From a virus (lineage: Duplodnaviria > Heunggongvirae > Uroviricota > Caudoviricetes), in the IMG/VR virus record IMGVR_UViG_3300042331_000303: 64,000 bases of DNA; one strand, given 5' to 3'. Below are positions 11,701-49,382 of the stretch, in pieces. Each line of letters begins with the position of its first letter. Position 1 is the first letter of the stretch. The notes beneath the pieces were generated by a model that saw nothing but the letters and a program-made list of their open reading frames with translations, made no database searches and had not been told where the DNA came from. A program made the position numbers and the translations under genes.

Positions 11701-12350
11701 CGAGCGGGCGTCCGGAGAAGCAGGATAGCGCGCTGGGCTGCCTTGGGGAGCCCGATGCCGTCGCTGCCCCAAGTGAACGGAGGATCGACCTTCGCGATGT
11801 GGTTAGCGCGAAGCTGGTCCCCCACCCCTTCGGGGAGGTCATCGTTCGGCGTCGCGATGATCTTCAAGGCCCACGCGAGCTTCCGAGAAGCTCCCTGCGC
11901 GTCGTCGAGGAGCACGAACCGCCGGCCCTTCTCCAGCACCGACCAGTCGTTGAGGGCATCTCGGGTCGAGTAGAGCCGCTTGAAGTACCGGGCGAGGCCG
12001 AAAGCGTGGAGCGCGCCCTCGGCGTAGTCTCGCTTCGCTGCCGTGAAGACGCACAGCTCGCCGTACTTGGCCAGCTCGGCCAGGACGGCCTCGGCGTAGG
12101 GGTTCACGACGAAGTCGTAGGTCACGTCGCCGAACTGGATCGTCTCAGCCTCTCGCGCCTGTTCGATCTCGCGCTGGATCGACGGAATGCGCCGAGCCAG
12201 CAGCGCCGCGATGCGATCGTTGGAGACCTCCATCTTCTGGGTCGTGTGCGCAAGCTCCCACTCAGCCTGCTGGAGCATGTTCCAGCCGTTCTGCATGCGC
12301 GAGGCCCAGAGGGTCTCGTCGAGGTCGATGAAGATGAGCGGGCGCTTCAT
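11697..12350 (-). CDS. HAD-superfamily phosphatase (NIF/FCP1-like)
   Basis: IFIDLDETL (DxDxT), VFTAAKRDYA, VLLDD. Confidence 0.8.
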   Translation of the reverse strand: MKRPLIFIDLDETLWASRMQNGWNMLQQAEWELAHTTQKMEVSNDRIAALLARRIPSIQREIEQAREAETIQFGDVTYDFVVNPYAEAVLAELAKYGELCVFTAAKRDYAEGALHAFGLARYFKRLYSTRDALNDWSVLEKGRRFVLLDDAQGASRKLAWALKIIATPNDDLPEGVGDQLRANHIAKVDPPFTWGSDGIGLPKAAQRAILLLRTPAR

Positions 12351-13120
12351 GGGCCGGTTCGGGGGTTGGCTCGCTTGGCCGCGGCGACGGTATGATAGCC
12401 GATGGGCTGCTCTACGTCGGGAGCGACCGCGTCGAGCTGTTCGAGGTAGCGGTTGAGCTTCTCTGCATAGCCCATCCCGAACGACTTCACCAAGGCGTTG
12501 TACGCACGGCCGACTTCGTCCCGCTGCGCGGCGAACGCCCGCGACTCGGGGGAGTCGAGCCACTCCATCCAGTTGGAGCCCGGCGGCTTGTCCCAGACCT
12601 TCGCGTACAGGACGTCGTAGGTTCGCTTCAGTGCGGCGGCGGCCGCCAAGTCCGAGGGGCTTGCCTGCGCGACGTGCAGCGCGTTCGGGAGCGCCTGGAG
12701 AGCCTTCTGGGCGGCGGCCGGCGTGCGGCCCAGCGCAGCGCCCAGAGCGGCTTCCACGGCGTCGTACTTGGCCACGCGCTTGCCTTCGTAGGGCTTGATG
12801 AACCACCCGTTCGAGCTGATGCCGCCGAAGAGGTTCCACGAGCCCGCGGGCGTGTGGCCTCCGGTCCCCGTGCTCATGTAGAACGCCCGCCGCTTGCCAG
12901 GGGAGACCTCGACTACGGCAAAGGGCCGGACGGCATCCCCTGTCGTGGTGATCGTACCTCCGCCAAGCAGGAACCCGACGACCGTCGAGCGGGGCGCAGC
13001 CGCGCCGGCCGCGCCAGCCGGGCCCGCGGCCCGCTCAGCCTTCTCGCGGGTGTAGAACCACCGGTCGCCGACCATGTAGATCGTCCTACCTCGGGCGTCC
13101 TTGCCTTCTTGTATCATCAT
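12347..13120 (-). CDS. Hypothetical late protein, C-terminal KRANP motif
   Basis: Coupled ORF; N-terminal GRTIYMVGDRWFYTREKA module. Confidence 0.6.
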   Translation of the reverse strand: MMIQEGKDARGRTIYMVGDRWFYTREKAERAAGPAGAAGAAAPRSTVVGFLLGGGTITTTGDAVRPFAVVEVSPGKRRAFYMSTGTGGHTPAGSWNLFGGISSNGWFIKPYEGKRVAKYDAVEAALGAALGRTPAAAQKALQALPNALHVAQASPSDLAAAAALKRTYDVLYAKVWDKPPGSNWMEWLDSPESRAFAAQRDEVGRAYNALVKSFGMGYAEKLNRYLEQLDAVAPDVEQPIGYHTVAAAKRANPRTGP

Positions 13121-13692
13121 GACTCGTACTCCGGGTTGCACTCACCCGCGAACCGCTCCCACGAGTCCTCGCCCTTGTCCAGCTCGACCTGTAGGTTGTA
13201 GAGGTAGGTTCCAGCCATGTCGAAGTCCTGCCGACCGAGCGCGATAGCAGCTCCTCGGGCCCACGCCTGCGCCTTGTTGTAGACACGGAGCTTGGAATGC
13301 GCCATGGCGTAGGCCCGCCCGAGGGCGTAGAGCTTGTCCTCGGCTTCTGCAACAGTCTTGGGATACTTTGGATCGTCTCCCTGTTCCGCCACGTAAGCCA
13401 CGTTGCTGCGGATCTGGCGGTCCATGTTGACAGCGGCTCGCTGAAGCACTCGGAGGGTCTTGTCGACCTTGTTTCCGACGTTGTGGTAGTTACCCTTGAA
13501 CCAAGAGAACTTCTCTGACATGCGGTGAGTCAGGTCTCCAACATGCTCACAGAGCCAGCCGTACTCTTGGGCGATCTGCGAGTGTTGGAGCTTCAGCATC
13601 GCCTCTTCTGGCTTGTACCGCTGAGCGGCGGCCAGCTCTTCGAAGAGCCTGTCTCGCTCCTTGGTCGAGCAGTGAGAGTTCTTGCGGATCAC
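13117..13692 (-). CDS. Hypothetical protein
   Basis: GGAGG RBS, GTG start VIRKNS... Confidence 0.55.
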   Translation of the reverse strand: MIRKNSHCSTKERDRLFEELAAAQRYKPEEAMLKLQHSQIAQEYGWLCEHVGDLTHRMSEKFSWFKGNYHNVGNKVDKTLRVLQRAAVNMDRQIRSNVAYVAEQGDDPKYPKTVAEAEDKLYALGRAYAMAHSKLRVYNKAQAWARGAAIALGRQDFDMAGTYLYNLQVELDKGEDSWERFAGECNPEYES

Positions 13693-13991
13693 CGCCCAAC
13701 CTCCTTGAACGTCCGCGCTCCGAGGTGAACAGGTCGAAAGGATACCTGAAGGATGTCGAGGCACCCCTCCACCTCTGGAACCTCGTCCTCCACGTAGTCT
13801 GCGGCGTCTACCGCGTCCTGATACTCTATGAACAGCTCAGGCTCGTTCGAGAAGCCAAGTCCAGCGATCCAACGAGAGTAGAGGTGACCGTTCCAGAGCC
13901 CGATGACGTAGAACGTGTCGGTCTTTCGAGCGTACCCCCGGCGCTCTGGGTACTCAGCGCGAGGTGGCTGGATGGGGTTCCGTCGGCTCAT
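13689..13991 (-). CDS. Hypothetical protein
   Basis: Start MSRRNP, ATGA-coupled. Confidence 0.55.
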   Translation of the reverse strand: MSRRNPIQPPRAEYPERRGYARKTDTFYVIGLWNGHLYSRWIAGLGFSNEPELFIEYQDAVDAADYVEDEVPEVEGCLDILQVSFRPVHLGARTFKEVGR

Positions 13992-14200
13992 GGGCTTCGT
14001 TCCTGGTACGATCGGAGGAGGAGTTCGACGTCGTTGTAGTCGTTCTTGATCGAGTCGATGGTGCGGTAGACCTCCTCGTCTTGGTCGATTCCGTGCGCGG
14101 CGCACAGATCGAACAGGCGGGAGAGGTCCGCATACAGTGGGACGAGTTGGTTGCGCAGGTCGGCGATCAGCCGATCGTGCTTTCCCGTGCATGGATTCAT
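13988..14200 (-). CDS. Small hypothetical protein
   Basis: ATGA-coupled. Confidence 0.5.
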   Translation of the reverse strand: MNPCTGKHDRLIADLRNQLVPLYADLSRLFDLCAAHGIDQDEEVYRTIDSIKNDYNDVELLLRSYQERSP

Positions 14201-16202: not shown

Positions 16203-16798
16203 CCCTTCCCCGCTCGGATTCGTTGGATCGAAGCCATGCTGAACACGACATCGAGCAGGATCATGGTGCCGTTCTTGTCTACGCCGAGATTGCGCGGAGC
16301 AAACTCGAAGGTGTAGTCGCTGCCGTAGTCTGAAGCGTAGTCCCGCAAGGTCTCCAGAGCCTCGAACACCCCGGGCGAAACGACGCCCTCAGCGCATTCG
16401 AGCACCTTCTCCATCGCAACGTAGCCGAACTGCCGGTCGGCCCAATGGAGGCCACGCCAGCAGCGCTCCAGCGTGCGGTAGTCCGCCCACGCGACCTTGT
16501 TGGCCGCTCGGAGGGGGACTTGGTACCGCGGCATGACGAAAGCCTCACTGTCCGGCAAGCTGCCCAGCCGGCGCACGTAGGGGATGTGCGGATTCCCGCG
16601 CTCGTCCTCCCAGATGCGGGCGAGCAGCTCCTTGCTGAAGTCCTGCTTGCAGTCCGGGACGATAGCGACTACTCGATCGGGCTTGCCGACGACTTCGTAG
16701 ACCGTGGCGAACGCGCCCTTTCCGATCTGTCGCAGAGGCGCCGTGTCGCCGGAGTCCAGATCGGTCAGCACGCCGCGATGGAGAGTCATGTTGCCCAT
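16196..16798 (-). CDS. Protein-kinase-like (PKL fold) protein
   Basis: IGKGAFATVY Gly loop, HIPYV, FAPRNLGV, MILLDVVF. Confidence 0.65.
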   Translation of the reverse strand: MGNMTLHRGVLTDLDSGDTAPLRQIGKGAFATVYEVVGKPDRVVAIVPDCKQDFSKELLARIWEDERGNPHIPYVRRLGSLPDSEAFVMPRYQVPLRAANKVAWADYRTLERCWRGLHWADRQFGYVAMEKVLECAEGVVSPGVFEALETLRDYASDYGSDYTFEFAPRNLGVDKNGTMILLDVVFSMASIQRIRAGKGC

Positions 16799-17283: not shown

Positions 17284-18866
17284 CAGATGACCCAGATGCG
17301 AACGTCTTCGACGGCGCGGGTGACTGCGGTGTAGGCCCACTCGCGGGCGAACTGACGGTCGTCCTCGTCCGTGCTGGTCCACTTCCGCTGCATGCTGTAC
17401 TCCCAGACTACCCCGACCTTCTTCCACTGGCTGCCCTGACTCTTGTGGCAGGTCAGGCACTCGCCGTACTCGGCCCACAGCGCCACGTCCGGACGGATGG
17501 CGCCGTACTGGTCGAACAGCTCCTCGTCGGACAGCTCCTGCATCTCCAGTGGCTCTTCCCACGGGGGCGTCGTCTCGTCCATAGGGTCGCGCATGTCTTC
17601 CACCGCCTCCTTGTAGGCTTCGAAGTACGGAGCCATGCCAGCGTCCCAGTCGTTGCGCTTGTCGATGTTCAGGGCGCGCATCTGAACGAGGAACGGCCCC
17701 TTGTCCTTCCAGAGCTGGACGTACTGGAAGCCAGCCTCGCCGAGCCCGCCCTTCGGGCGCCAGCCCTTCTGGACGATGAACACCTCGCCGTTCATCACGC
17801 CCGCGCCGCGGTTGTTGGCCAGCACCACGAGGCGGTCCGCCTGCACGAACGCGAGGTTTGCCTTCTCGGCGATCTTGTCCAGCCCGCGGAGGCGGCGCAC
17901 CGCGTGGTTCAGCTCACGCCGGGTCTTGTTGGTGAAGCAGAGCAGAGTGCAGTCCTCTCGCCGCTCGCGCAGCTCGGCCAGCCACTTCGCCGGCTGGGCC
18001 ATCACTGCGCGCCGGTTCACCAGTACGTGCTGGGCCGGATCAGGTACCGCGGTGTAGAACGGGTCCTTGTCGTTCTCGCCGAGTCGGATGCGCGTAGCGA
18101 GGTTGATGATCGGATTGTCGGCCGCCTGCCGGTGGACCTTCTCCAGCGTCGCGGTCGGATGGTCGAAGTCCGGCCCCCACGCCCCTCCGACGGGGCGGAG
18201 CTGGCCCTTGTCCCCGACGTAGAGCACCGAGAAGTTCGCGGGAAGGCGCCCCATCACGCGGTCGTGAAGGGCCTTGTCGATCATGGACGCCTCGTCCACG
18301 ATGAGCACGACCGAGCCCGCCTGCTCCTTGCCCTTCTTGTCAGCGAACACGACCTGAGTTTCGATCGTATCGGCCCGATCCAACGGAACGCGAGCGCTAC
18401 AGTGCGGGCAGGTCCAGTCCGTATCCCCCTTGCGGCGAAGCGTGACGATGGAGCGGCCCATCTCGGGGCTGAACTCCTTGCACTTCGGGCACTTCCCGAC
18501 CGTCTTGCCCTGTCCGAGCACCGCACTGTGGACCGTCGAGGTCTCGCGCCGGGTCGTCTCCTTCAGGCGGCTCGCGGCCTTGCCCGTCGGCGCTGCGAGC
18601 ACGACGCCCACACCGACCGCTTCCAGCCGCTCAATCAGGAGCCGCATGACGGTGGACTTGCCGGACCCGGCGTAGCCGGCGAGAACCAGCACGGTTCGCT
18701 TGCCGTCCGCGCTCCGGTTGGTCAGCAGGTCGAAGATCTTGTCGAGGGCTGCGGACTGGTCGGGGGAGGGCTGGAACGCACCCGCAGGGTTCCGTCGGGC
18801 TGGAGCAAACGCCGCGCAGTCGATGACAACGGCGAGGTCTTCGGGCTTGCGGAACTTGGTCGTCAT
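17283..18866 (-). CDS. RecD/Dda-like SF1B helicase with Zn-finger insertion
   Basis: LAGYAGSGKS, AAPTGKAA, IVDEASM, VGDKGQLRPV, LTCHKSQGSQW, YTAVTRA; CPKC...CPHC insert. Confidence 0.9.
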   Translation of the reverse strand: MTTKFRKPEDLAVVIDCAAFAPARRNPAGAFQPSPDQSAALDKIFDLLTNRSADGKRTVLVLAGYAGSGKSTVMRLLIERLEAVGVGVVLAAPTGKAASRLKETTRRETSTVHSAVLGQGKTVGKCPKCKEFSPEMGRSIVTLRRKGDTDWTCPHCSARVPLDRADTIETQVVFADKKGKEQAGSVVLIVDEASMIDKALHDRVMGRLPANFSVLYVGDKGQLRPVGGAWGPDFDHPTATLEKVHRQAADNPIINLATRIRLGENDKDPFYTAVPDPAQHVLVNRRAVMAQPAKWLAELRERREDCTLLCFTNKTRRELNHAVRRLRGLDKIAEKANLAFVQADRLVVLANNRGAGVMNGEVFIVQKGWRPKGGLGEAGFQYVQLWKDKGPFLVQMRALNIDKRNDWDAGMAPYFEAYKEAVEDMRDPMDETTPPWEEPLEMQELSDEELFDQYGAIRPDVALWAEYGECLTCHKSQGSQWKKVGVVWEYSMQRKWTSTDEDDRQFAREWAYTAVTRAVEDVRIWVI

Positions 18867-21623: not shown

Positions 21624-21812
21624 ATGTACGGATGTGGCTGTAACGGCACCGCAGGGCTCGGCAGCCCCTTCCCCGCCAGCCCGGTGGGGCAGCCTCCCTA
21701 CCTGCTCATCGCTCTGGCCGCCATCGGGGTATTCGGATTCTGGGCGAAGGACTCGGCCGAGCGCCCGCGGACCAACCCGCGCCGGAAGGGGCGGAAGGGC
21801 CGCCGCCGGTGA
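21624..21812 (+). CDS. Small MYG-start membrane protein with basic RTNPRR tail
   Basis: MYGCGCNG...YLLIALAAIGVFGFW...RTNPRRKGRKGRRR. Confidence 0.6.
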   Translation: MYGCGCNGTAGLGSPFPASPVGQPPYLLIALAAIGVFGFWAKDSAERPRTNPRRKGRKGRRR

Positions 21813-22192
21813 ACCAGGTCCTCCGGCTCTGCCTGCCCATCATCGAGGACGTGCGGCGCCACGAGCCGGCGTTCGAGGTCGAGGTGCGCATGGGTCGGGC
21901 GGAGGAGTTCCCCGCCCCGCGGAACTTCGCCTACTGCGTGTCCGAGTCGCCGCCGGTGGTGGTCTACGCTCCCAAGCTCGCGCGGCAGGACCCCGAGCGC
22001 ATCCTCGGCGTGATGATGCACGAGATCGCAGGGCATGCCCTGTTCTTCTGGCGTGGACGGGAGGAGCACTCCGAGCGCGCGGCTGACACGCTCGCGGAGA
22101 AGGTCTGTCGGGCCCGCATCTCCTACGACCGGGATCTGCTCGTGCAGACGACCGGAGAAGGAATCCGTCCTCGGCCTGCGGAGTTGGGCTGA
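21809..22192 (+). CDS. Possible minimal metallopeptidase
   Basis: MMHEIAGHA and ERAADTLA. Confidence 0.5.
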   Translation: MNQVLRLCLPIIEDVRRHEPAFEVEVRMGRAEEFPAPRNFAYCVSESPPVVVYAPKLARQDPERILGVMMHEIAGHALFFWRGREEHSERAADTLAEKVCRARISYDRDLLVQTTGEGIRPRPAELG

Positions 22193-30790: not shown

Positions 30791-32278
30791 CTACCGGCGG
30801 GGGTTGGCAGTGAACAGGGACAGTGGGAAGGGGCGGTTCGCAGAGACGTCGATCTGCTTGGATGCACGGCGCACAGGGGCGCTGCCGAGCTGGTCGTCGA
30901 TCCAAGCACGCGCCTCGGCTGCCGTCTTGAACGGCTCCTTGTACGCTTCGACGATGTAGACGCCGCCGCAGCTCAGGACGCGGAGGCCGCGGTAGACCTG
31001 ACCACGCGGGCGGCCCTTTCCGTTGGTGCGAAGGGCGAGCGGGTTCCGGGTCGGCTTGGTCATCTCGCGCTTGACGTGGCGGCCGAGCCAAGCCTTCGCG
31101 GAGGCGAGCTTGGTGAACTCGCGGCCGTAGGGGCGCACCACGAACTTCGTGCCGACACGCTCGATCGCGTGACCTGCATGGATGAGCATCTCGCCCTCGC
31201 GGAGCACCTTGCCGGGGTTCCGGGTCGGCTTGGTCATCTCGCGCTTGACGTGGCGGCCGAGCCAAGCCTTCGCGGACGAGAGCTGGGAGAACTCGCGCCC
31301 GTAGGGCTGGACGACGAACTTCGAGCCGGACCGCTGGATCGAGTGTCCGGCGTGGATGAGCATCTCGCCCTCGCGGAGCACCTTGCCGGGGTTCCCCGTC
31401 GCCGAGCGACGGGGATTCTCGCGGAGGTCGCCCTGGTGCTCGCGGACCGGCTCGCCGTTGGCGAAGAGCGTGACGTCCTCACCGGCTGCACGCCCGCGAC
31501 CGCTCTTGCTCTGGCCGCGGTAGAGTGCGAAGACGGCGTCGGCCGCCTTGCGGTTGGAGCCGCGGTGGACCGTGCCGATGTTGCCGACGAGGACTTCGTA
31601 CAAGGCTGCGCGACCGGAGTTGCGTCGGAGTCCCGCGCTCTCGGCAGCGGCGCGGGTCTTGTAGCGGGTCACCTGCTGGATCGTCTGGCTGGCTGGCGAG
31701 TAGATCTGGAGGACGAAGCTCTTGCCGTGCGCGTAGACGTATCCGCGGTTGCCCGAGCGGGTAGCGAAGGACGAGACCTGCTCGGCATCGCCGTACTTCC
31801 GGACATCCGTCGACCAGAAGTCGGCTCGCGGGTTCTCCTTGTAGCGATCCTCCTGCCGGAGGTTGTCCTCGGAGGTGTGCTGGGCATGGCGGCGGAGCAG
31901 CGTGGTGCCCGCACCGGCGCCGCCGAGTCCGACGGTCGAGCCCATCGGCATCGGGACGCGCGTACGGTAGCTGTCCTGCCCCGGCTTGAGGTAGCTGTCC
32001 TTGGTGGCGTACTTCGCGCCGCGGGCGTCCGGGTTCCGGTCGAGCCACGCCAGCACTTCGCGCAGGGCGGAGCCCGCCGTCGCAGTCGTCGGCTGGATGC
32101 GGACGTGGGGCACGTAGCGGACCTCGATGGTGTCGCCCATCGGCTTGTAGCTGATGGCGATCTTCGACTGTGCCTTCCGTGCATGCTCGCCGATGTAGAC
32201 GCCGAGCGTGTTGCCGGCCTTGACGATCTCGCCGAAGCGGAACGGTTCGGGGTTCTTGCGGGTGCGACGCTTGGCCAT
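30791..32278 (-). CDS. Multi-module basic late protein with repeated RxN(P) linkers
   Basis: MAKRRTRKNP...; nine xxN(P/S/G) sites; internal 58-aa duplication. Confidence 0.7.
   Translation of the reverse strand: MAKRRTRKNPEPFRFGEIVKAGNTLGVYIGEHARKAQSKIAISYKPMGDTIEVRYVPHVRIQPTTATAGSALREVLAWLDRNPDARGAKYATKDSYLKPGQDSYRTRVPMPMGSTVGLGGAGAGTTLLRRHAQHTSEDNLRQEDRYKENPRADFWSTDVRKYGDAEQVSSFATRSGNRGYVYAHGKSFVLQIYSPASQTIQQVTRYKTRAAAESAGLRRNSGRAALYEVLVGNIGTVHRGSNRKAADAVFALYRGQSKSGRGRAAGEDVTLFANGEPVREHQGDLRENPRRSATGNPGKVLREGEMLIHAGHSIQRSGSKFVVQPYGREFSQLSSAKAWLGRHVKREMTKPTRNPGKVLREGEMLIHAGHAIERVGTKFVVRPYGREFTKLASAKAWLGRHVKREMTKPTRNPLALRTNGKGRPRGQVYRGLRVLSCGGVYIVEAYKEPFKTAAEARAWIDDQLGSAPVRRASKQIDVSANRPFPLSLFTANPRR
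31041..31394 (-). repeat. Tandem duplication, 174-bp period (two copies)
   Basis: NPGKVLREGEMLIHAGH...AKAWLGRHVKREMTKPTR twice; period 31041/31215/31389. Confidence 0.85.
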
Positions 32279-32280: not shown

Positions 32281-33054
32281 CTACTTCTCCTTGCGCAGGT
32301 AGGCGGTTGCCCGTGCCCGCATGCTGAACCACTTGTTCGTGCCGTTGATGTAGAAGCGGCCGTCCTTCTCGGTGATGCCGCCGATGCTCTTTGGAGCCTT
32401 GAGATGCAGTTCGAGCGAGAGCTGCTTCGCTTCCCGCTTGACCTGCGCCTCGATGGCCTTGCGCTCGCCCCGGGCGAGCTGGGCGGCGCGCTGGACGCGC
32501 TCTCCGATGCCCGTGTCAACCTGGCCGAGCGAAGCAGCGTAGGCGTACGCCTTCTCCTCGGAGCGGAACCGCTTGCCGCCAGGGCGGACCTCGTACATTC
32601 CTCCCGTGCGGGCGGGAGGAACAACGCGGTAACCCTTGGCCTTGCGGCCATCCGCGAGCATGAACTCGATGGCCTCGCGCCGGATGACGGCGTCGGGCTC
32701 CATCGCCTTCTTCTGCGCCTGAGCGAGCCCCTTCGAGGTGAGGGTCCGCGTTCCGGGCTCCAGGTAGCCGTGCTTCTGGAGCTGCTTCGTGGCGATCATA
32801 AACGCCGTGCGGAGCGGCATGTCCTTCCCCCGCTCCGCGGAGGACTCCATGATGCCGTGAGCCACGATGGTGACGTACTCACTCGCTGCGTCCTTCAGGC
32901 GGTCGCCTGTAGGGTTGGTGCGGAGCAGCGCCGTTGACCGTCGCTCGATGGGCCCTCGACCGAAGCGGAGGTCCACCATGCCTTGCGGGCGCAGGGCGAC
33001 CACGGTGCCGGAACGGCCCCCGAGGGTCACGCGCTGGCCCACCCGCACAGACAT
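32281..33054 (-). CDS. Late protein: SH3/KOW-like N-domain, LRTNP linker, further modules
   Basis: VRVGQRVTLGGRSGTVV; TGATG coupling. Confidence 0.6.
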   Translation of the reverse strand: MSVRVGQRVTLGGRSGTVVALRPQGMVDLRFGRGPIERRSTALLRTNPTGDRLKDAASEYVTIVAHGIMESSAERGKDMPLRTAFMIATKQLQKHGYLEPGTRTLTSKGLAQAQKKAMEPDAVIRREAIEFMLADGRKAKGYRVVPPARTGGMYEVRPGGKRFRSEEKAYAYAASLGQVDTGIGERVQRAAQLARGERKAIEAQVKREAKQLSLELHLKAPKSIGGITEKDGRFYINGTNKWFSMRARATAYLRKEK

Positions 33055-33602
33055 CAACGGCGGCCGTTACGCCGAGGGTTGGCGGAGATGCGCGCTTCGG
33101 ACCGGACGCCCGACTTGAAGACGACCGCGTACTTGTCGCCGAAGTAGATCGCCATGTAGTGCTTCAGCGCCTTGAGCGTGTCGAACCGGACAACTCCATC
33201 GGTAGAGGGGCGGCAGGCATAGCCGTCAGAGGTCTTCCAGTAGTAGACCGTCTTGGTCGGGGCGCGCTTGGCTCCGCGGTTCCAGCGGAGCGTGGCGCCG
33301 TCGTCACCGGCCTCGTCCATCTTGATGTAGTGCGCCGCCGCGCTCCAGGCGAGCTTGAAGCCCTCTCGGAACGCCTTGCCGGCCTCCGAGGTCGACTTCC
33401 ACCACGCGGCGGGGACAGACGCCTTGGCCTGCGTCAGCGTGCGGGCGTTCTTGTCGTAGAACGCCGACTTCGCCGCTTCGTACCCCTTGAGGTAGAAGAT
33501 GTTCATCGGGTGCGCGGTGTCCTTGTACGCGGCGCTCTTGACCTTGGAGCCCCCGTAGTTGGCGCGAAGGCGGCGGGTAGAGGTGCGATGGCTGGAACGC
33601 AA
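33054..33602 (-). CDS. Basic late protein
   Basis: TTG start with GGAG; LRANY and SANPRRNGRR. Confidence 0.55.
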   Translation of the reverse strand: MRSSHRTSTRRLRANYGGSKVKSAAYKDTAHPMNIFYLKGYEAAKSAFYDKNARTLTQAKASVPAAWWKSTSEAGKAFREGFKLAWSAAAHYIKMDEAGDDGATLRWNRGAKRAPTKTVYYWKTSDGYACRPSTDGVVRFDTLKALKHYMAIYFGDKYAVVFKSGVRSEARISANPRRNGRR

Positions 33603-33685: not shown

Positions 33686-34501
33686 TGCCTGCCGCTGCCG
33701 GTTCCGGGTTGCAAGATCTCGCATCTCGCGGAGCTGGCTGAGCGTGCCGTAGGTCGAGCCCCGAATCTCTGCGCGCTCCATCAGCTCGTCGGCGCGGAGG
33801 CGGAGCATGGACTTTGCCGGCGCGAGCGCCGTGATGTCCCAGTAGACCTCTTCGATCTGAACTTGGAGGCTGCGGTTCTTGCGGAGCTTCCCGCGGTACC
33901 CCTTGTGCGATCCCTTGCGCCCCTTCTTCCGCTTGGGGTTGGTCCGTGCGAGCGCGGTCGAGGACGCGGAGGGCCGCTTGAACTTCTTGTAGGCGTACAG
34001 GCCCAAGAGCGCGACGCCGCCGAGAGCGGCGCTCCACAGCCAGACCTTGACGCTGGACTCGACCCCCGTCTGAATGACGGAGGCTGCCGTGTACGTCGCA
34101 GGCAGATCGACGTGCAGGTGGTCCTGCTCCATGAGCGCCCGGCCGCCGGTGGACGTGACTGCCGCCACGAGCTGGTCCCGCTGGGCTTGGCTCAGGGTGT
34201 TGGTGTGGAGGTCGAGGGCACCGCCCCACAAGTGGCGCGAGAGGCGCATCCCCTCTCGCTCGATGAGAGAGGTCCACGCAGCCTTGTCTTGCGGCAGCGC
34301 GAGCAGCTTGGAGATCAACGCCTTGTCACCGTAGATGTCCAGCGCGGAAGCGCCGTACTTCTGGACCTTGTAGAGCATCGCCGACGCCTGTTCGGCAGCA
34401 GTGCGGCCAGCGCTGGTCACGCGCACAGGGAACCCCGACGGCAACGCCGACTGGAGCTTGCTGAAGTAGGCCGACTGGCCCGCGGTCATTGCCGTACCCA
34501 T
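33683..34501 (-). CDS. Membrane-anchored M15-like peptidase (candidate virion entry lysin)
   Basis: VTSAGRT, SRHLWGGALDL, DHLHVD; TM WLWSAALGGVALLGLYAY; RTNPKRKK. Confidence 0.7.
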   Translation of the reverse strand: MGTAMTAGQSAYFSKLQSALPSGFPVRVTSAGRTAAEQASAMLYKVQKYGASALDIYGDKALISKLLALPQDKAAWTSLIEREGMRLSRHLWGGALDLHTNTLSQAQRDQLVAAVTSTGGRALMEQDHLHVDLPATYTAASVIQTGVESSVKVWLWSAALGGVALLGLYAYKKFKRPSASSTALARTNPKRKKGRKGSHKGYRGKLRKNRSLQVQIEEVYWDITALAPAKSMLRLRADELMERAEIRGSTYGTLSQLREMRDLATRNRQRQA

Positions 34502-38047: not shown

Positions 38048-39616
38048 TCAGGCGTGGCCAGCGAACATCAGGGCCCCGTAGCCGCCGAGACCGGCGGTGC
38101 TGGAGTCGTGCTGCATGTAGGCGGTCGCGGTGATCGCGGAGGGGATGGCGATCTGAGACTCGCTGAGGAGGACCGGGAGGCTCTCCAGCGCCTGCTTGCG
38201 CAGGCCCATGATGACCGCCACGCGCTCCTGCGGGGGAAGAGCGGCGATCTTCTGGAAGTTCTGGAATCCGACGAGGCGGATCAGCCAGCCCCACTTGTGA
38301 CCTTCGCGGCCGGCGTGGCGGGAGTTCGGGCCACCCTGACGACGGACCGCACGCACCGCCGGGACGCCGAAGGTGCCGAACCACGCGCCTTCGCCGTTGA
38401 GGGCGGCGGTGCCTTCGTAGTTCGAGAGGTCCGCACCGGAGTAGGCGGCGTCGGCGTTGGCGGCGTCGGAGTAGTGGCTGCCCGCGAGGGAGGCCACACC
38501 GCTCAGCTCGTACGCACCACCGTCACCGTAGCCGGAGAGGGCGAGGCCGTTCATCGAGGCGATCCCGTTCATCGAGGCGATCCCGTTCATCGAAGCGATG
38601 CCCGAGAGGCCGGAGATGAGGCCCTTGCTCTCCGCGAACTTCGCGGCGTCGGAGAGAACACCGGCGAGGGCCGAAGCCGCCGCGATGGTCTTGGCGACGG
38701 TGCCGAGCGTACCCGGGAGGAAGCGAGCTGCCACGAAGGCTGCCGCTGCCACCGCACCGCCGGTGAGGGTACCGCTGATGGCGGTGACGTGTGCCGGGAT
38801 GTACTTGGCCACGTAGGGGGACACGAACTTGGCGTTGATGTACGCACCACCGAGGGCGAGGAGCGCGACGGGGACCGCGGCGGCGATGGTCGGGCCGATG
38901 CCGAACGGCACGCGGCTGATGAGGCCGGTGACGGTGCTCATGCCGGGGATCTCCATGACGCCGGTGTTGTGGCGGAGACCGGTGTTGCGGCGACGGGCGC
39001 CACGGTTGCGGCGAGCCACGGCGCTCTTGGAGACGCCGTAGTACGAAGCGAGCGCGGAGGTCTTGGCCGCACCGTGGGTACGGTGGATCGTGGCGACCTT
39101 GCGCTTGCGAACGCCGCGCTTCGACATGCTGCGGAGCTTGGCCATGTGCGCCTTGGCCTCGGCCGAGCCCTTCACGAGGCGGGGGTTGCGACGACGGCGG
39201 CGGGGGTTCGCGGCGAGGGCGGGGGCGCCCGCCGGGATCTGGTAGAACGCGCCCCGAGCCTGACGGCGACGGAGGCGGGTCGGAGACATCTTGGACTCGC
39301 GGCGAGCCACGCGGGCCGAGCGACGGGTCACGCCACCGCGCTTGGCGGAGCGAGCCTTCATCTTGCTGCGGAGCGAGCGGTTCGAGGCGCGGTGGGAAGC
39401 CGAAGCCTTCGCGGCGGCTGCCTTGGCGGCCTTGCGGCGCTCGGCATACGCCGACTTGGTGCCGCCCTTGATCTTGTGCGAGCGGTAGAACGCCTTCTTG
39501 GCGCGGCTGTAGGACGCGCTGGCACGGTTCTTGCGGATGCCGCTGTTGCGGCGAGCCTTGCGGCGAACCTTCGAGCGACGGGGGTTGGTGACGAACAGGG
39601 CGCCGGTAAGGGGCAT
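38048..39616 (-). CDS. Arg/Lys-rich core/membrane protein (candidate DNA-condensing precursor)
   Basis: Very basic N-terminal ~230 aa with many RxN sites, hydrophobic helices, (GIASMN)x3 then LSGYG, globular C-terminus. Confidence 0.65.
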   Translation of the reverse strand: MPLTGALFVTNPRRSKVRRKARRNSGIRKNRASASYSRAKKAFYRSHKIKGGTKSAYAERRKAAKAAAAKASASHRASNRSLRSKMKARSAKRGGVTRRSARVARRESKMSPTRLRRRQARGAFYQIPAGAPALAANPRRRRRNPRLVKGSAEAKAHMAKLRSMSKRGVRKRKVATIHRTHGAAKTSALASYYGVSKSAVARRNRGARRRNTGLRHNTGVMEIPGMSTVTGLISRVPFGIGPTIAAAVPVALLALGGAYINAKFVSPYVAKYIPAHVTAISGTLTGGAVAAAAFVAARFLPGTLGTVAKTIAAASALAGVLSDAAKFAESKGLISGLSGIASMNGIASMNGIASMNGLALSGYGDGGAYELSGVASLAGSHYSDAANADAAYSGADLSNYEGTAALNGEGAWFGTFGVPAVRAVRRQGGPNSRHAGREGHKWGWLIRLVGFQNFQKIAALPPQERVAVIMGLRKQALESLPVLLSESQIAIPSAITATAYMQHDSSTAGLGGYGALMFAGHA

Positions 39617-41531: not shown

Positions 41532-41857
41532 CAGCGGCTCCGACGGCGACGGCGAGGGTTGGGCCGAACGCTCTTGTAGTTCTTGTACGCGAAGGAGGCC
41601 CCCACGATCGCTGCGATGACGACGCCGACCATGAGGTACGGCTTGAAGGAGTCCGTGGCTTCCTGCTTGGTCTGCTCCACGTACTGCTGGGCAGCAGCCT
41701 GCGTGGTCTGCGCGGTAGCGCGGCCAGGCGCGAAGGGGTTGAGCCACGTCAGGGGGTTCGGCACCCAGCTCGGCAACCACGAGTCCGACGTCCGCGACGT
41801 CTGCGTGTACTGGTTGGCGAGGGTCGACTGCGTCGATGGGGTACCGAAGGGAAGCAT
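41531..41857 (-). CDS. Tail-anchored membrane protein
   Basis: YLMVGVVIAAIVGASFAY then VRPNPRRRRSR. Confidence 0.65.
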   Translation of the reverse strand: MLPFGTPSTQSTLANQYTQTSRTSDSWLPSWVPNPLTWLNPFAPGRATAQTTQAAAQQYVEQTKQEATDSFKPYLMVGVVIAAIVGASFAYKNYKSVRPNPRRRRRSR

Positions 41858-45065: not shown

Positions 45066-45067
45066 GG

Positions 45068-45319: not shown

Positions 45320-45322
45320 GGA

Positions 45323-45748
45323 TCAGCTCCGACGAGTGAGAAGGAACACCGCGCCAGCGGCTGCGGCGACCATGAACCACGTCTGCTTCCAGAAAGGTCC
45401 CCCGGAAGGGAGGCCCACCGGCGCGAGTGCGGAGGCGGCCTGCGCCTCGACCGAGGTAGCCGTCACGGCAGCGGCCGCGGGGGGCTGGTCCGAGGTCGCA
45501 GGGCCGATCACCGGCTGGATGTAGGCGGTGCTCGGCGTGGGGATCGACGAGTGGATCGTGGAGAGCTGCGCCAGCTCCGTCTGGTAACGGAAGATGAGGG
45601 CCTCGGCGCGCTCGGCGTAGCGGATGTCCATGCTGTCGGCCACGCTGACCGATCCGGGACGTCCGCGGACGAGCGCCCGACGGCGGTACTCGTGTGAGAG
45701 AGCGGTGAGCCGTGCGATTTCGGCACGGAGCCATGCGATTCGAGCCAC
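45323..45748 (-). CDS. Tail-anchored membrane protein
   Basis: GGAGG RBS; PFWKQTWFMVAAAAGAVFLL + RRS. Confidence 0.62.
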   Translation of the reverse strand: MARIAWLRAEIARLTALSHEYRRRALVRGRPGSVSVADSMDIRYAERAEALIFRYQTELAQLSTIHSSIPTPSTAYIQPVIGPATSDQPPAAAAVTATSVEAQAASALAPVGLPSGGPFWKQTWFMVAAAAGAVFLLTRRS

Positions 45749-47174: not shown

Positions 47175-47969
47175 CTACTTGGAGGGATAGCGGAGCTGGC
47201 CCCGCGGGTTGACGAGCGGGACGGTCGTGGGGGGAGACTCGGCCAGCCCGAGATCGACGAACTTGAGCGCGCCCTTCTTTCCGTGGAACGCGGGGTCACG
47301 CATGACGTTCCCGCCGTGGACGTCGTGGAAGTCGATCCCAGCCTTGCGGAGCTTGCTGTACGCATCCACCAGCCCGTCGATCTCCGCTCGGCCAATGCCC
47401 ACGTCTTGGGCGCTCCGCACGAGGGTGTCGTAGGCGCACTTGATGAAGGGGGCGCCGTCGAGAGGCTTGCACGCCGTGTAGTAGCTGCCCACCTCGCCCC
47501 GGGTCATCTTGTGCGTCTGGCCGCCTGCGGCCTGCACGAGGTCGGGCACGTTGTTCTCGTTGAGCCAGTTCCTCTCGCGGTTGGGGAGCGGGTCGAGCCG
47601 CTGAGTGATGATGGCGTAGAGGACGGGGCGGTACCCGCCAGTGTCGATCGCAAACGCACAGGGGACATCAGGAAGACCGGGGCTTCGGACCTTCCGCTCG
47701 TGGATGTTCCGCCACACGCCAGCTTCAGTGGCGTCGCCGGTGAGCTTCATCACGTAGTCGGGCTCGCCGTCGAGGGCGAAGACCTGTGCGAACGTCCCCG
47801 TCCCGATGCAGCGCCCGAGCTTGTAGCCGTGCCGCGCCAGCACGTCCTTGGCGAGGGGGTACGCCCGAGACCACGGGTAGTCCCGCATCTCGACGTTGAG
47901 CATCGTGTCCATCACCGATGGGATCGACTTCTTCACGGCAGGGCAGGCGGGGCGGTTCTGTCGCAGCAT
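47175..47969 (-). CDS. Ser/Thr protein kinase-like
   Basis: IGTGTFAQVF, VMKLT, FHDVHGGNVM, KFVDLG; N-terminal MLRQNR, C-terminal LVNP. Confidence 0.82.
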   Translation of the reverse strand: MLRQNRPACPAVKKSIPSVMDTMLNVEMRDYPWSRAYPLAKDVLARHGYKLGRCIGTGTFAQVFALDGEPDYVMKLTGDATEAGVWRNIHERKVRSPGLPDVPCAFAIDTGGYRPVLYAIITQRLDPLPNRERNWLNENNVPDLVQAAGGQTHKMTRGEVGSYYTACKPLDGAPFIKCAYDTLVRSAQDVGIGRAEIDGLVDAYSKLRKAGIDFHDVHGGNVMRDPAFHGKKGALKFVDLGLAESPPTTVPLVNPRGQLRYPSK

Positions 47970-48844
47970 CACGCAACTCGGTGGGGCATCATCGTGCCGT
48001 AGCTCTCGTAGCGGGGGTAGCGTTCGAGGCGCTTCTTGGGGCTCTCGGCGTACCAGAGGTCCGCCGCGGCGTGCGCCTGCTCGCAGGTGCGGTGCTTGCT
48101 GCGTGGGTGGCCCAGCACGTACAGCACGGCGACTCCGGTACCGCACCAGATCAGCACGCCGTCCTTCGCCGCCGCGGTGACCCCATCCGGGGCGCGGTCG
48201 TCCGGGAAGGGCTTGCCTTGGAATCCGCCACGGCGAGCTGCCGAGGCGGCCCGCTCAGCGGCTGCGAGGCGCTCCTCGTCCTCGCGCGTCCAGCCTTCCG
48301 GCCGGCGCCGAGCCCACGCCGGCTTCGGCTCCTTGGGCGGACGCTTGGCCCGGCGGGCGCGCTCCTTGGCGGCCTCGCGCTTCTCGGCCGCGCGCTCCTC
48401 CGCAGCCTCGCGCTTGACCTTCTCGGCGTCGAAGCCGAAGCCGAAGCCGTAGTCGAACGCGCTGGCCTTGTACCCGGCGGGTTCTGGCTCGACTGCCTTC
48501 AGCTCTTCCGGCGGAGAATCGCCAGCAATCGGACCAACAACGAGCCAGAGCTTCGGAAACTGCCGAAGCATGCTCCGGGCGAGGTTCTTCGCCGCGGCCT
48601 GCTCGCCCTCGGGCGCGTTCGCCGAGGGCTTCAGGAGCGCGAGGGCCTTCCGGTAGAGGGACTCGGCCTTCTCGTAGGGCGGGTTCTTGCGGATCGTGGT
48701 GCGGACCTTCTCAGGCCGGAGGCTGAACTTCGCCCCGGGAGCACCGCAGCGGTAGCACGGCATGGCATAGGCGGCCTGCTTGGACAGGTCCACCTTCACC
48801 GTGATCGGCTTGCGGCAGCGGGGGCAGGAGCCTTGGACGGTCAA
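47969..48844 (-). CDS. Zn-ribbon + IRKNP linker + DUF2786-like domain protein
   Basis: CPRC...CYRC; KALALL...EGEQAAAKNLA. Confidence 0.6.
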   Translation of the reverse strand: MTVQGSCPRCRKPITVKVDLSKQAAYAMPCYRCGAPGAKFSLRPEKVRTTIRKNPPYEKAESLYRKALALLKPSANAPEGEQAAAKNLARSMLRQFPKLWLVVGPIAGDSPPEELKAVEPEPAGYKASAFDYGFGFGFDAEKVKREAAEERAAEKREAAKERARRAKRPPKEPKPAWARRRPEGWTREDEERLAAAERAASAARRGGFQGKPFPDDRAPDGVTAAAKDGVLIWCGTGVAVLYVLGHPRSKHRTCEQAHAAADLWYAESPKKRLERYPRYESYGTMMPHRVA

Positions 48845-48848
48845 GAAC

Positions 48849-49382
48849 TCAGTCCTCCGAGCTGTGGTGCTTGCGGCGGCGGGCGTACTTGGTCTTGTCC
48901 TTGTGCGCGCCGGCCTTCCGCTTGACGCGGAGGGCGAACTCCGTGCCGCGGCGGGGTTCGATCTCAGCGAGAGCGGCCCGGAACTGAGCCTCCGTGCGCG
49001 GAGCCCGCTTCTTCTTGCCGCGGTTCTTCCGGGCCGCCTTCACGCCCGAGATGACTGCGCCTGCCGCGACCCCCTTCGGGCCGAGCAGCGCGAGCAGCTC
49101 CGGGTGGTTGTAGGCCAGCTCGATGGGGAGCGTGGTCGAACGAACCATCCGACGCGGACCCGCCTTCATCTGCTCGATGGTGAAGCGCTTCGCTTGGTCC
49201 CAGGTCGGGTTTGCCCGGATGCCGCGGCGCGCCTCCCGACGCTCCAGCTCGCGTTCGTACACGTCCAGCTTGGCCAGCAGCGAGTGCTCTTCTCGGCGAG
49301 AGGCCACCGCGAGAGCGTCCTCCACCTTAGCGATGGCTCGCAGGATCTGGTCGGTCGTAGCCTTGGAGAGGGGGATGGCCAT
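48849..49382 (-). CDS. Basic late protein
   Basis: GIRANP and ARKNR motifs; GGAG RBS. Confidence 0.55.
   Translation of the reverse strand: MAIPLSKATTDQILRAIAKVEDALAVASRREEHSLLAKLDVYERELERREARRGIRANPTWDQAKRFTIEQMKAGPRRMVRSTTLPIELAYNHPELLALLGPKGVAAGAVISGVKAARKNRGKKKRAPRTEAQFRAALAEIEPRRGTEFALRVKRKAGAHKDKTKYARRRKHHSSED

What the first reader, a model, noticed from the sequence alone, without database searches (positions are those of the whole stretch)
12347..49382. R-x-N-(P/G/S/R) motif marks termini and domain boundaries in about 17 late proteins
Seen: MSRRNP, VIRKNS, TKKNG, CRKNG, KRANP, RTNP (21624, 32281, 33683), RKNP/RENP/TRNP/RRNS (30791), VTNP/RRNS/RKNR/RRNP/RHNT (38048), MRQNR, VRPNP, LRQNR (kinase), IRKNP and IRANP. 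It sits at N-termini, just before basic C-tails or exactly between modules; the duplicated 58-aa unit starts and ends on NP. It is nearly absent from the early-type genes (one case, WRPNP at 10014). Inference: a shared maturation-cleavage site or cargo tag that loads enzymes (kinase, metallopeptidases, lysin) and basic proteins into the particle. Asn-Pro and Asn-Gly bonds are also known autocleavage-prone bonds (FlhB/YscU N|P). I know of no described phage system with this signature.
Basis: partly seen in the sequence, partly recalled or inferred. Interest (0 to 1): 0.85.

Follow-up and report, generated by a model that had tools for sequence, protein, structure and literature searches.

The report
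Arginine-flanked Asn-Pro seam motif
A short arginine-flanked Asn-Pro signature really does mark the flexible joints and ends of many otherwise unrelated proteins in a large uncultured group of bacterial viruses, and it most likely marks where precursor proteins are cut or tethered during particle assembly, though neither has been shown.

Summary
The motif is real. In the claimed region, R-x-N-P occurs 13 times against 1.3 expected. It is the most over-represented of 48,000 gapped tripeptides. It survives shuffling within 10-residue windows and is specific to the reading frame.

It recurs in six related metagenomic loci (37 vs 4.3) and in a 150-member protein family (158 vs 15). Arg and Asn are specifically required: Lys, Ser, Thr and Asp do not substitute. 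Instances cluster at protein termini (25 of 85 vs 10.4 expected).

In one family, N and P are about 95% conserved. They lie exactly in the only low-confidence linker between two confidently folded domains.

The "late proteins only" claim fails, because a helicase/RadC/phosphatase block is also enriched. Two unrelated high-GC phages show a mild R.NP background of about 2–4x.

The function is unproven. My best reading (about 0.4) is a targeting-and-processing signal like the T4, giant-phage or adenovirus protease motifs. The main rival (about 0.3) is an uncleaved DNA- or core-anchoring hook.

A core transglutaminase-fold enzyme with an invariant Cys-His-Glu triad is the only candidate reader, and nothing links it to the motif yet. 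This scan had already noted the same signature on other DNA (e1-5312744, e1-1089494).

The parts
39575..39592 (-). VTNPRR. It ends the N-terminal leader MPLTGALFVTNPRR of the 522-aa basic/TM protein (38048-39616).
   Evidence: The leader element is conserved in more than 55 of 92 family members, with Asn invariant. The same leader sits on 3 unrelated proteins in relatives.
39176..39214 (-). Paired sites AANPRR and RRNPRL in the basic arm of 38048-39616.
   Evidence: The arms of orthologues carry up to 13 copies 6-7 residues apart.
32905..32922 (-). RTNPTG. This is the linker between the N-terminal beta module and the helical module of the 257-aa protein (32281-33054).
   Evidence: L43/R45/N47/P48 are invariant in 3 orthologues. 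N is conserved in 149/159 and P in 152/160 of 150 homologues. Residues 45-53 are the only low-pLDDT stretch between two confident domains.
32243..32260 (-). RKNPEP near the N-terminus of the 495-aa modular protein (30791-32278).
31406..31423 (-). RENPRR. It precedes the two 58-aa units of 30791-32278, each of which is bounded by N-P.
   Evidence: Unit copy number varies exactly from N-P to N-P in a near-identical variant.
31823..31840 (-). KENPRA, an internal site in 30791-32278.
30794..30811 (-). TANPRR-stop, the extreme C-terminus of 30791-32278.
33069..33086 (-). SANPRR(NGRR-stop), the C-terminal tail of the 182-aa protein 33054-33602.
33929..33946 (-). RTNPKR. It follows the TM helix of the weakly M15-like protein 33683-34501 and starts a poly-basic stretch.
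   Evidence: An analogous tail sits on a Peptidase_M23 protein in L003.
21768..21785 (+). RTNPRR(KGRKGRRR-stop), a TM helix plus basic tail on the 64-aa protein 21618-21812.
41549..41566 (-). RPNPRR(RRRSR-stop), a TM helix plus basic tail on the 108-aa protein 41531-41857.
47199..47216 (-). LVNPRG near the C-terminus of the kinase-like 264-aa protein 47175-47969. That protein also begins MLRQNR.
   Evidence: The kinase assignment rests only on reading the sequence (GxGxF..V, VMK, HDVHGGN); Pfam gave no hit.
48674..48691 (-). RKNPPY, after the N-terminal Cys4 zinc-ribbon-like segment of 47969-48844.
49200..49217 (-). RANPTW in the 177-aa Arg-rich protein 48849-49382.
12356..12373 (-). RANPRT(GP-stop), the C-terminus of 12347-13120 in the replication-type block.
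13968..13985 (-). (MS)RRNPIQ, the N-terminus of 13689-13991.
18780..18797 (-). RRNPAG in the 30-residue N-terminal extension of the Dda-like helicase 17283-18866.
   Evidence: (the helicase domains start near residue 31).
16583..16600 (-). RGNPHI, internal to 16196-16798. This may be a chance instance.
49384..50562 (-). Transglutaminase/papain-fold protein with a C-terminal TM helix. It is the only candidate reader or processing enzyme, and it is unlinked to the motif so far.
   Evidence: Pfam Transglut_core, weak. Atlas look-alikes. 269+ homologues. C110/H158/E177 invariant in 50. Core syntenic gene of the group.
21809..22192 (+). Small HExxH (HEIAGH) protein next to a motif carrier.
   Evidence: Read directly from the sequence. 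No Pfam or PHROG match.

Best explanation
The feature is a short linear motif with an invariant Asn-Pro core (sometimes Asn-Gly or Asn-Ser). An Arg sits two residues upstream and/or Arg-Arg directly downstream, and often a Leu or Val four residues upstream. It lies in flexible segments at protein termini and between folded modules, in a large uncultured phage group.

My preferred reading is that it is a targeting-and-processing signal. A virus-encoded endopeptidase would recognise it. That enzyme would release modules from polyprotein-like precursors, trim short N-terminal leaders such as MP-x-x-FVTN|PRR, and detach or fragment the Arg-rich arms and tails. The logic would match the consensus-site proteases of T4 and the giant phages, and of adenovirus, whose substrates are also DNA-bound basic precursors.

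Shown: the motif exists, is specific, is conserved, lies in a linker, and is biased to termini.
Inferred: that it is cleaved, which bond is cut, and which enzyme does it.
For: 1. Rank-1 enrichment in three independent genomes, and a pooled count of 52 vs 6.3.
2. Residue specificity of the kind seen in enzyme sites. R.NP is 8.3x, against K.NP 2.7x, R.SP 0.5x, R.TP 0.6x and R.DP 1.1x.
3. In 150 homologues sharing 25-35% identity, N is 94% and P 95% conserved, R/K at -2 is 80%, and L/V at -4 is 79%. Yet AlphaFold2 with a 97-row alignment puts exactly these residues in the only low-pLDDT stretch between two confident domains. A conserved sequence in a disordered linker implies something reads it.
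4. Homologues break at the motif (profile 1-54 or 48-140). The downstream module is reused inside 1,000-2,767-aa multi-domain proteins, with further sites at junctions and C-termini.
5. N-P is present in 91/107 proteins where the module follows another module, but in 5/21 where it starts the protein. The basic flank is kept in both.
6. The same N-terminal leader, ending in the motif, sits on at least 4 unrelated proteins. [quoted passage not shown]
7. Closely spaced multiple sites have a precedent: SPN3US propeptides carry several AXE sites and are cut into small fragments, with a P4 Val preference.
8. Adenovirus precursors are DNA-binding proteins cut near both termini by a papain-like protease that slides on DNA (PMC4246237).
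9. A transglutaminase/papain-fold enzyme with an invariant Cys-His-Glu triad is a core gene of the same module.
Against: - No cleavage has been observed, and no recognisable maturation protease family was found by Pfam or PHROGs.
- Pro directly after the presumed P1 Asn is unfavourable for most endopeptidases (established knowledge), so the cleavage register is unknown.
- Some sites are 2-6 residues from the N-terminus or 2-3 from the C-terminus, for example ...TANPRR-stop. Cutting there achieves little.
- The basic residues can lie on either side of N-P. That mirror grammar is odd for a directional active site.
- Arrays every 5-7 residues in the basic arms look more like a DNA-binding repeat.
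- Carriers include a helicase and other non-virion-type proteins.
- On a tree, the junction-dependence test rests on only 2 supported independent contrasts and is not significant.
- The transglutaminase-fold enzyme could equally be a cell-wall peptidase, and some relatives fuse it to NUDIX.
Confidence: 0.4

Rival explanations
1. The motif is an uncleaved anchoring hook or tag. It would be a small Arg/Asn/Pro unit in disordered arms that binds DNA, or a core or membrane component, non-covalently. It would tether enzymes, membrane-protein tails and core proteins to the genome, so that they are co-packaged or held in place. Functionally this resembles AT-hooks or arginine-rich viral arms.
For: - The motif is always embedded in, or next to, basic residues.
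- C-terminal instances are all body-x-N-P-(R/K)n, several directly after a TM helix.
- The protamine-like arms of the 38048 family carry tandem arrays.
- Sites at the extreme termini are conserved.
- The mirror arrangement of the basic flank suits electrostatic or turn binding.
- Carriers include DNA enzymes, such as the helicase N-terminus.
- Arg over Lys, and an essential Pro, are also properties of the AT-hook (established knowledge).
Against: - Asn is irreplaceable, and S/T-P-basic (SPKK-type) is not enriched at all (SPR 0.6x, TPR 0.7x).
- In the 32281 family the linker site has few basic neighbours, yet N-P is about 95% conserved.
- N-P tends to be lost when the module is N-terminal, while the basic residues stay (weak after tree correction).
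- No known DNA-binding motif has this core.
Confidence: 0.3
2. The motif is a passive structural punctuation. Asn-Pro would act merely as a helix or strand stop and N-cap that insulates neighbouring modules, with no reader.
For: - Junction and terminal location.
- Asn as N-cap with Pro at N1 is a classic helix start (established knowledge).
- Several sites are followed by helices (NPTWDQAKRF, NPPYEKAESL).
Against: - A passive cap tolerates Ser, Thr or Asp, but here these are not enriched.
- Arg at -2 and Leu/Val at -4 are conserved too.
- In the model, the site is 8 residues before the next helix and has low confidence, so it is not a cap.
- Unrelated phages lack the terminal and junction grammar.
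Confidence: 0.08
3. The motif undergoes protease-independent Asn chemistry. This would be self-cleavage of Asn-Pro (or succinimide formation at Asn-Gly), acting as a slow or assembly-triggered switch, as in asparagine peptide lyases.
For: - Asn is invariant, and the next residue is Pro or Gly, the two residues with special Asn chemistry.
- Five lyase families are viral coat proteins that cleave inside assembled particles, and FlhB cuts at N|PTH (PMC3207474).
Against: - Every known lyase needs a folded active site with a partner residue.
- Here the site is in a disordered linker and occurs in dozens of unrelated contexts.
- There is no similarity to any lyase family.
- Uncatalysed Asn-Pro cleavage is very slow (established knowledge).
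Confidence: 0.05
4. The motif is a translational signal. R-x-N-P has the same spacing as the SecM-type arrest core R-A-G-P (Arg at -2 of the P-site residue, Pro-tRNA in the A site). It could pause ribosomes at module boundaries.
For: Only the geometry of the motif (recalled knowledge of SecM/RAPP-type arrest peptides) and its junction location support this. One instance reads GIRANP (49200-49217), against SecM's GIRAGP.
Against: - It does not explain NPRR without an upstream Arg, the C-terminal tails, or the N-G/S variants.
- Arrest peptides need a long upstream context.
- There is no experimental hint.
Confidence: 0.03
5. The motif is an artefact of composition, paralogy or a DNA-level word, such as a recombination scar at module junctions.
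For: - Arg-rich, GC-rich genome.
- Mild R.NP excess also in phages L5 and phiC31.
- AACCC is frequent outside genes.
Against: - Local-window shuffles.
- Frame specificity, 15 vs 1-3.
- Synonymous codon variation.
- Carriers are unrelated by BLAST.
- Conservation at 25-35% identity.
- The non-genic AACCC copies are tRNA T-arms.
Confidence: 0.01

Closest known systems
Consensus cleavage motifs of phage prohead proteases (T4 gp21 L/I-x-E; phiKZ/SPN3US A/S/G-x-E) together with T4-type capsid-targeting propeptides
   Same: - A 3-4 residue consensus recurs in many unrelated head or internal proteins.
- Sites lie near N-termini and in propeptides.
- Several sites occur in close succession.
- There is a hydrophobic preference at P4.
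- Short shared N-terminal leaders end in the motif (PMC10052503).
   Different: - The residues differ (Arg/Asn/Pro rather than Glu at P1).
- Sites also occur at extreme C-termini and in replication-type proteins.
- No S78/U9-type prohead protease, portal, terminase or HK97 capsid gene was recognised here.
- Cleavage is unproven.
Adenovirus protease (AVP) sites, (M/I/L)-x-G-x|G type, in DNA-bound core and cement precursors
   Same: - Basic, DNA-binding precursors are cut near both termini and internally.
- Small basic peptides are released.
- The enzyme has a papain-like catalytic arrangement and works along the DNA (PMC4246237).
- The 38048-39616 protein resembles a pVII/pVI-like precursor.
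   Different: - There is no sequence relationship, and the consensus differs.
- The candidate enzyme here has a transglutaminase-core fold and a TM anchor.
- The virion architecture of this phage group is unknown (the capsid-like model has pLDDT 47).
Polyvalent (multi-domain, virion-delivered) proteins of phages and conjugative elements (Iyer et al. 2017, PMC5512222)
   Same: - The module downstream of the motif is reused inside 1,000-2,767-aa multi-domain phage proteins.
- That paper predicts release of domains by embedded peptidases and packaging into capsids.
   Different: - That work describes no junction motif.
- The giant homologues here show only a 2H-phosphoesterase-like domain and DUF7831 by Pfam.
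- No zincin-like MPTase was detected in them.
AT-hook (R-G-R-P core) and SPKK-type minor-groove motifs
   Same: - A very short Arg- and Pro-dependent unit in disordered, basic segments.
- It is often repeated, and it is used as an accessory on many unrelated proteins.
   Different: - The core is Asn-Pro, not Gly-Arg-Pro or Ser/Thr-Pro.
- S/T-P-R is depleted here.
- DNA binding is untested.
Asparagine peptide lyases (FlhB/YscU N|PTH; reovirus mu1; noda-, tetra- and picornavirus coat proteins)
   Same: Asn is the essential residue, the Asn-Pro bond is scissile in FlhB/YscU, and several families act during virion maturation (PMC3207474).
   Different: Those enzymes need a specific fold and a catalytic partner residue. 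Here the site is a portable 4-6 residue element in disordered linkers.

Membership tests
Viral maturation-protease cleavage motif (T4 / giant-phage / adenovirus type) | Short consensus recurring in several unrelated proteins of the virus, above chance | tested here: met
   Rank 1 of 48,000 patterns in the window region and in L001. NPR is rank 1 in L003. Pooled count 52 vs 6.3.
Viral maturation-protease cleavage motif (T4 / giant-phage / adenovirus type) | Sites lie in accessible, flexible segments (propeptide junctions, linkers, termini) | tested here: met
   Residues 45-53 of the 32281-33054 protein are the only low-pLDDT stretch between two confident domains. Terminal bias is 25/85 vs 10.4. 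Only one family could be modelled.
Viral maturation-protease cleavage motif (T4 / giant-phage / adenovirus type) | A cognate protease encoded by the virus | tested here: inconclusive
   No protease family was detected by Pfam or PHROGs. A core transglutaminase-fold protein has an invariant Cys-His-Glu triad, but nothing links it to the motif.
Viral maturation-protease cleavage motif (T4 / giant-phage / adenovirus type) | Peptide bond demonstrably cut in virions | not testable with these tools
   The lineage is uncultured. No deposited relative exists, and no proteomic data were reachable.
Asparagine peptide lyases | Essential Asn at the scissile bond | tested here: met
   N is conserved in 149/159 of one family and is invariant in the leader of another. 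D, S and T do not substitute.
Asparagine peptide lyases | Asn held in a folded active site with a catalytic partner residue, and homology to families N1-N11 | tested here: not met
   The site is in a disordered linker. No Pfam similarity was found. The family's requirements are taken from PMC3207474.
AT-hook / SPKK DNA-binding motifs | Core G-R-P or S/T-P-K/R-K/R | tested here: not met
   The core is N-P. SPR is 0.6x, TPR 0.7x and GPR 0.9x of expectation.
AT-hook / SPKK DNA-binding motifs | Binds DNA (minor groove) | not testable with these tools
   No DNA-binding assay or DNA-complex prediction was available.
Polyvalent proteins (PMC5512222) | Large proteins that concatenate many conflict-related domains, with an embedded releasing peptidase | tested here: inconclusive
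   Giant homologues of 1,000-2,767 aa exist. Pfam recognises only tRNA_lig_CPD-like and DUF7831 domains and no peptidase. The window's own carriers are 64-522 aa.
2A / StopGo recoding peptides | D(V/I)ExNPG|P consensus | tested here: not met
   Sites read R-x-N-P-(R/A/G/T...), with no NPGP core. 2A is also known only from eukaryotic translation (established knowledge).

The most novel reading that the evidence does not exclude
The core transglutaminase-fold Cys-His-Glu enzyme of this uncultured virus group acts on the motif's Asn. It would either be an Asn-specific endopeptidase that cuts the normally resistant Asn-Pro bond, or it would attack the Asn side-chain amide to form enzyme-made isopeptide cross-links. 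In either case one four-residue code would both address proteins to the particle and govern their covalent maturation, in a phage lineage whose virion lacks every recognisable tailed-phage assembly gene.
Probability: 0.1. Interest if true: 0.85.

Novelty: new variant of a known kind. Interest (0 to 1): 0.62.

Why it matters
Almost every protein in this widespread, uncultured virus group is an orphan. The group has hundreds of metagenomic homologues on contigs of 40-175 kb and no cultured relative.

A conserved four-to-six residue code at joints and ends gives a rare sequence-only handle on these proteins. It predicts domain boundaries, nominates a set of co-regulated (probably particle-associated) proteins, and defines clean constructs for expression.

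If it is a processing site, it adds a new specificity (Arg-x-Asn-Pro) to the small list of viral maturation codes, and it points to an unrecognised protease.

If it is an uncleaved hook, it is a new nucleic-acid or core-anchoring motif. In both cases a few simple experiments would decide.

Tried and rejected
- One search suggested that the distant relatives L003 and L004 lack the motif. This was an artefact of my simplified gene caller picking antisense shadow ORFs. With the database gene coordinates they are strongly enriched.
- AlphaFold2 of the capsid-like protein with 6 sequences gave pLDDT 47. That is unusable, so I did not establish the virion type. A Terminase_6N search of the 105-kb relative found nothing, which proves little.
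- Complex prediction of the transglutaminase-fold core with the motif-bearing linker of 32281-33054 gave no verdict, with the score under the mark. It counts neither way.
- The co-occurrence test of the transglutaminase-fold enzyme with the motif failed to discriminate, because the enzyme is a core gene of the same virus group.
- The strict bipartite pattern (R-x-N-P, 4-11 residues, N-P-R/K) is significant in relatives but absent from the window, so it is not the common denominator.
- The Fisher test of junction dependence (P 6e-8) does not survive phylogenetic correction: there are only 2 supported contrasts.
- A search for stand-alone copies of the 58-aa unit found only fragments or variants of the same protein.
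- A DNA pattern scan for the MP-x-x-FVTNPRR leader in IMG/VR found nothing.
- Foldseek of the 32281-33054 model found nothing significant, only a Tudor/SH3-like lead for the first 45 residues.
- Profile searches of the 40905 and 49384 families against PDB sequences found nothing.
- The ESM Atlas gave no usable lead for 40905-41531.
- Literature searches found no described phage motif of this kind.
- The DNA-scar idea was rejected, because the non-genic AACCC copies are tRNA T-arms.

Full report
**Setting.** The window is 65% GC and has no close relative among deposited phages. Earlier notes of this scan place it in a large uncultured phage. I called 96 genes with a codon model trained on ORFs with high GC3. 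The tiling shows the usual 1- and 4-base operon overlaps.

Most proteins are orphans in Pfam and PHROGs. The recognisable ones are:
- an SNF2 helicase, an AAA ATPase and an ADP-ribosylglycohydrolase (1-5 kb);
- a tyrosine integrase (9105-9911);
- a NIF/HAD phosphatase, a Dda-like helicase and a RadC-like protein (11.7-19.5 kb);
- 29 tRNA genes (23.4-28.3 kb);
- an M15 endolysin (28796-29350);
- an HNH endonuclease (39974-40816);
- a pentapeptide-repeat protein (58223-58813);
- a weak transglutaminase-core match (49384-50562).

- Per-protein shuffles give R.N[PGSR] 29 vs 6.4 and R.NP 13 vs 1.3 inside 12347-49382. There is no excess outside that region.
- To avoid cherry-picking, I ranked all 48,000 tripeptide patterns with up to two gaps. 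R.NP is first (P 9e-10), NPR is second, and LR.N is close behind.
- Shuffling only within windows of 10-40 residues, which preserves the basic patches, still gives 13 vs 1.3-1.8.
- Codons vary synonymously at each position.
- The DNA word CG-N4-AAY-CC occurs 15 times in frame, 1-2 times in each other frame, 3 times antisense and once between genes. The signal is therefore in the protein.
- AACCC is common outside genes only because it is the T-arm of the tRNA array.

**Controls.** The same pipeline on the unrelated high-GC phages L5 and phiC31 gives NPR at expectation. R.NP is mildly high there (6 vs 1.5, rank 148; 4 vs 1.1, rank 747). The control sites that fall in annotated genes sit inside folded enzymes, including a shared ThyX motif, and none is terminal or next to a basic tail. 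So R.NP has a background of roughly 2-4x. Per residue, this group carries about 2.5x more R.NP and about 7x more NPR.

**Relatives.** I fetched related loci from several sources:
- The capsid-like protein found two IMG/VR relatives, L001 and L002.
- The 522-aa basic/TM protein has 89 unnamed homologues, which led to L003 and L004.
- The transglutaminase-fold protein led to L006 and L007, which are syntenic members of the same group.

With reliable gene sets:
- R.NP is rank 1 in L001.
- NPR is rank 1 and R.NP rank 3 in L003.
- R.NP is rank 7 in L004.
- In the relatives alone, R.NP is 37 vs 4.3 (P 3e-22). Pooled over 54,678 aa it is 52 vs 6.3, NPR is 45 vs 6.3, and R.NG is 38 vs 9.8.

An earlier impression that L003 and L004 lack the motif came from bad gene calls and was corrected.

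**Anatomy of the motif.**
- Specificity is sharp: K.NP is 2.7x, R.SP 0.5x, R.TP 0.6x, R.DP 1.1x, SPR 0.6x and TPR 0.7x.
- The profile over 97 Arg-flanked N-P sites shows basic residues at -2 (61%), -1 (34%), +2 (56%) and +3 (38%). Acidic residues are depleted at -2 and +2, and hydrophobic residues are enriched at -3.
- Twenty-five of 85 instances lie within 15 residues of a terminus, vs 10.4 expected.
- C-terminal instances are all body-x-N-P-(R/K)n, several directly after a TM helix.
- N-terminal instances are either M-(basic)-N-P-body or MP-x-x-FVT-N-P-RR.
- In the basic arms of the 38048 family, the unit repeats every 5-7 residues, with up to 13 copies.

**Conservation.**
- In the 38048 family, the N-terminal element R-x-N-[PG]-[AM]P[LT][ST]GA[LI][FY][VI]-x-N-[PG]-RR is found in more than 55 of 92 members. 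Asn is never replaced by Ser, Thr or Asp.
- Three orthologues of 32281-33054 share only 27-32% identity, yet L43, R45, N47 and P48 are invariant.
- A full HMM search with that alignment found 153 proteins. At the motif columns N is 149/159, P is 152/160, R/K at -2 is 109/137, and L/V at -4 is 94/119.
- Across those proteins R.NP is 158 vs 15.1 and NPR is 104 vs 15.1.

**Structural context.** AlphaFold2 with a 97-row alignment gives a confident N-terminal beta module (pLDDT 79-89) and a confident helical module (pLDDT 95-98). The only low-confidence stretch between them is residues 45-53, RTNPTGDRL. The conserved motif is therefore not part of either fold. It behaves as a linear motif that something reads.

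**Modularity.** Many homologues match only up to the motif, or only from it. The downstream module also occurs inside proteins of 1,000-2,767 aa.
- N-P is present in 91/107 proteins where that module follows another module.
- N-P is present in only 5/21 proteins where the module starts the protein, while the upstream basic residues are kept.
- On a tree of the module, architecture changes 13 times, but only 2 contrasts lie on supported branches. N-P follows the predicted direction there, but significance cannot be reached. This result is suggestive only.

**Portable leader.** The leader MP(T/M)(Q/K)F(V)TNPRR occurs on three proteins that are unrelated to each other, and to the 38048 family, beyond residue 18.

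**The 'late protein' claim.** The replication-type block 11697-19965 is enriched (4 vs 0.27). The 22 genes at 50624-63999 have none. The motif is thus not a simple late-gene marker.

**Mechanism.** Cleavage, packaging and binding are all untested. I favour a targeting-and-processing signal (about 0.4). The reasons are:
- residue-specific conservation inside a disordered linker;
- the hydrophobic -4 position;
- architectural breaks at the motif;
- paired and multiple sites;
- the shared leader.

These features parallel two known systems. Prohead-protease systems have AXE sites with a P4 Val preference, propeptides cut into small fragments, and T4 propeptides that target proteins to the core (PMC10052503). 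In adenovirus, DNA-bound basic precursors are cut near both ends by a papain-like enzyme sliding on DNA (PMC4246237).

The points against this reading are:
- Pro directly after Asn;
- sites too close to termini for cutting to matter;
- the mirror arrangement of the basic flank;
- the dense arrays in the arms;
- carriers that are not virion-type proteins;
- the lack of a recognisable protease.

Those same points favour the main rival, an uncleaved DNA- or core-anchoring hook (about 0.3). That rival in turn struggles to explain why Asn is irreplaceable, and why the 32281-family linker keeps N-P with few basic neighbours.

Self-cleavage of the asparagine-lyase type is unlikely, because the known lyases need a folded active site (PMC3207474). 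A passive cap is unlikely, because Ser, Thr and Asp do not substitute and the site is not adjacent to the helix.

**Candidate reader.** The protein 49384-50562 belongs to a family of 269+ members. Cys110, His158 and Glu177 are invariant in 50 of them. It is a core, syntenic gene of the group. In L007 it carries the motif on its own C-terminus. Some relatives fuse it to NUDIX, and it could be a cell-wall peptidase. A complex prediction with the linker gave no verdict.

**Novelty.** Literature searches found no described phage system with this signature, and the polyvalent-protein paper gives no junction motif. Earlier notes of this scan report the same signature on other genomes (e1-5312744, e1-1089494). 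Those are AI notes and not independent evidence, but they agree with the breadth I measured here.

Noticed in passing
window 23409-28299 (- strand): An array of 29 tRNA genes in two blocks. It includes tRNA-Asn(GTT), three tRNA-Pro and four tRNA-Arg.
   Followed up: partly
window 34937-37949 and 41880-45065; also 21618-21812 and 52046-52930: Many structural-module proteins begin with MYG (or MYD, MYF, MYR, MWG). A run of 8-9 small proteins (41880-45748) each ends in a TM helix plus a short basic tail. This is the subject of other notes of this scan.
   Followed up: no
window 40905-41531 (-); orthologues L001 7491-8057, L002 7386-8021, L003 5486-6070, L004 7641-8234, L006 9639-10268, L007 20034-20633: This is one of the most conserved proteins of the group (42-51% identity). 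It has invariant H26, D83, H86, H129, D157, S168, H172 and E176, and a C-terminal GGxY...PxxGIT motif. It looks like an enzyme, but Pfam, PHROGs, PDB and the Atlas give no match.
   Followed up: partly
window 39974-40816 (-): An HNH_3 endonuclease gene with repeated C-x-x-H-Y motifs sits between the 40905 and 38048 genes. It is absent from that position in all related loci, so it is probably a recent mobile insertion.
   Followed up: no
window 30791-32278 (-), residues 296-411: The 58-aa unit is present twice here. A near-identical metagenomic variant (P0365) has it once. The difference is exactly one unit, from N-P to N-P.
   Followed up: partly
L007 10001-11638, and homologues P0260, P0275, P0285 and others: In several relatives the transglutaminase-fold core protein is fused to a NUDIX hydrolase domain.
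   Followed up: no
L002 16611-19247: An 878-aa protein reads like a GHKL-type ATPase N-terminus (E-x-x-x-N-S-x-D) followed far downstream by an HExxH site. It has R-x-N-P/G sites near its N-terminus. This was read by eye only.
   Followed up: no
window 57180 and 61078 (- strand): The same 24-base stretch (GGGCCACCGACGAACCCTCTGCCC) occurs in two intergenic gaps about 3.9 kb apart. It may be a repeated regulatory element.
   Followed up: no
window 53336-55324 (-); L007 6799-8889: A 662-aa core protein of the group (38% identity over 695 residues to L007) has a long Arg/Glu-rich coiled-coil centre and no family match.
   Followed up: no
L008 (phage L5) 31607-32338 and L009 (phiC31) 32588-33301: The ThyX-like proteins of both control phages share an R-x-N-P-A-T-A segment. 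It accounts for part of the mild R.NP background in unrelated phages.
   Followed up: no
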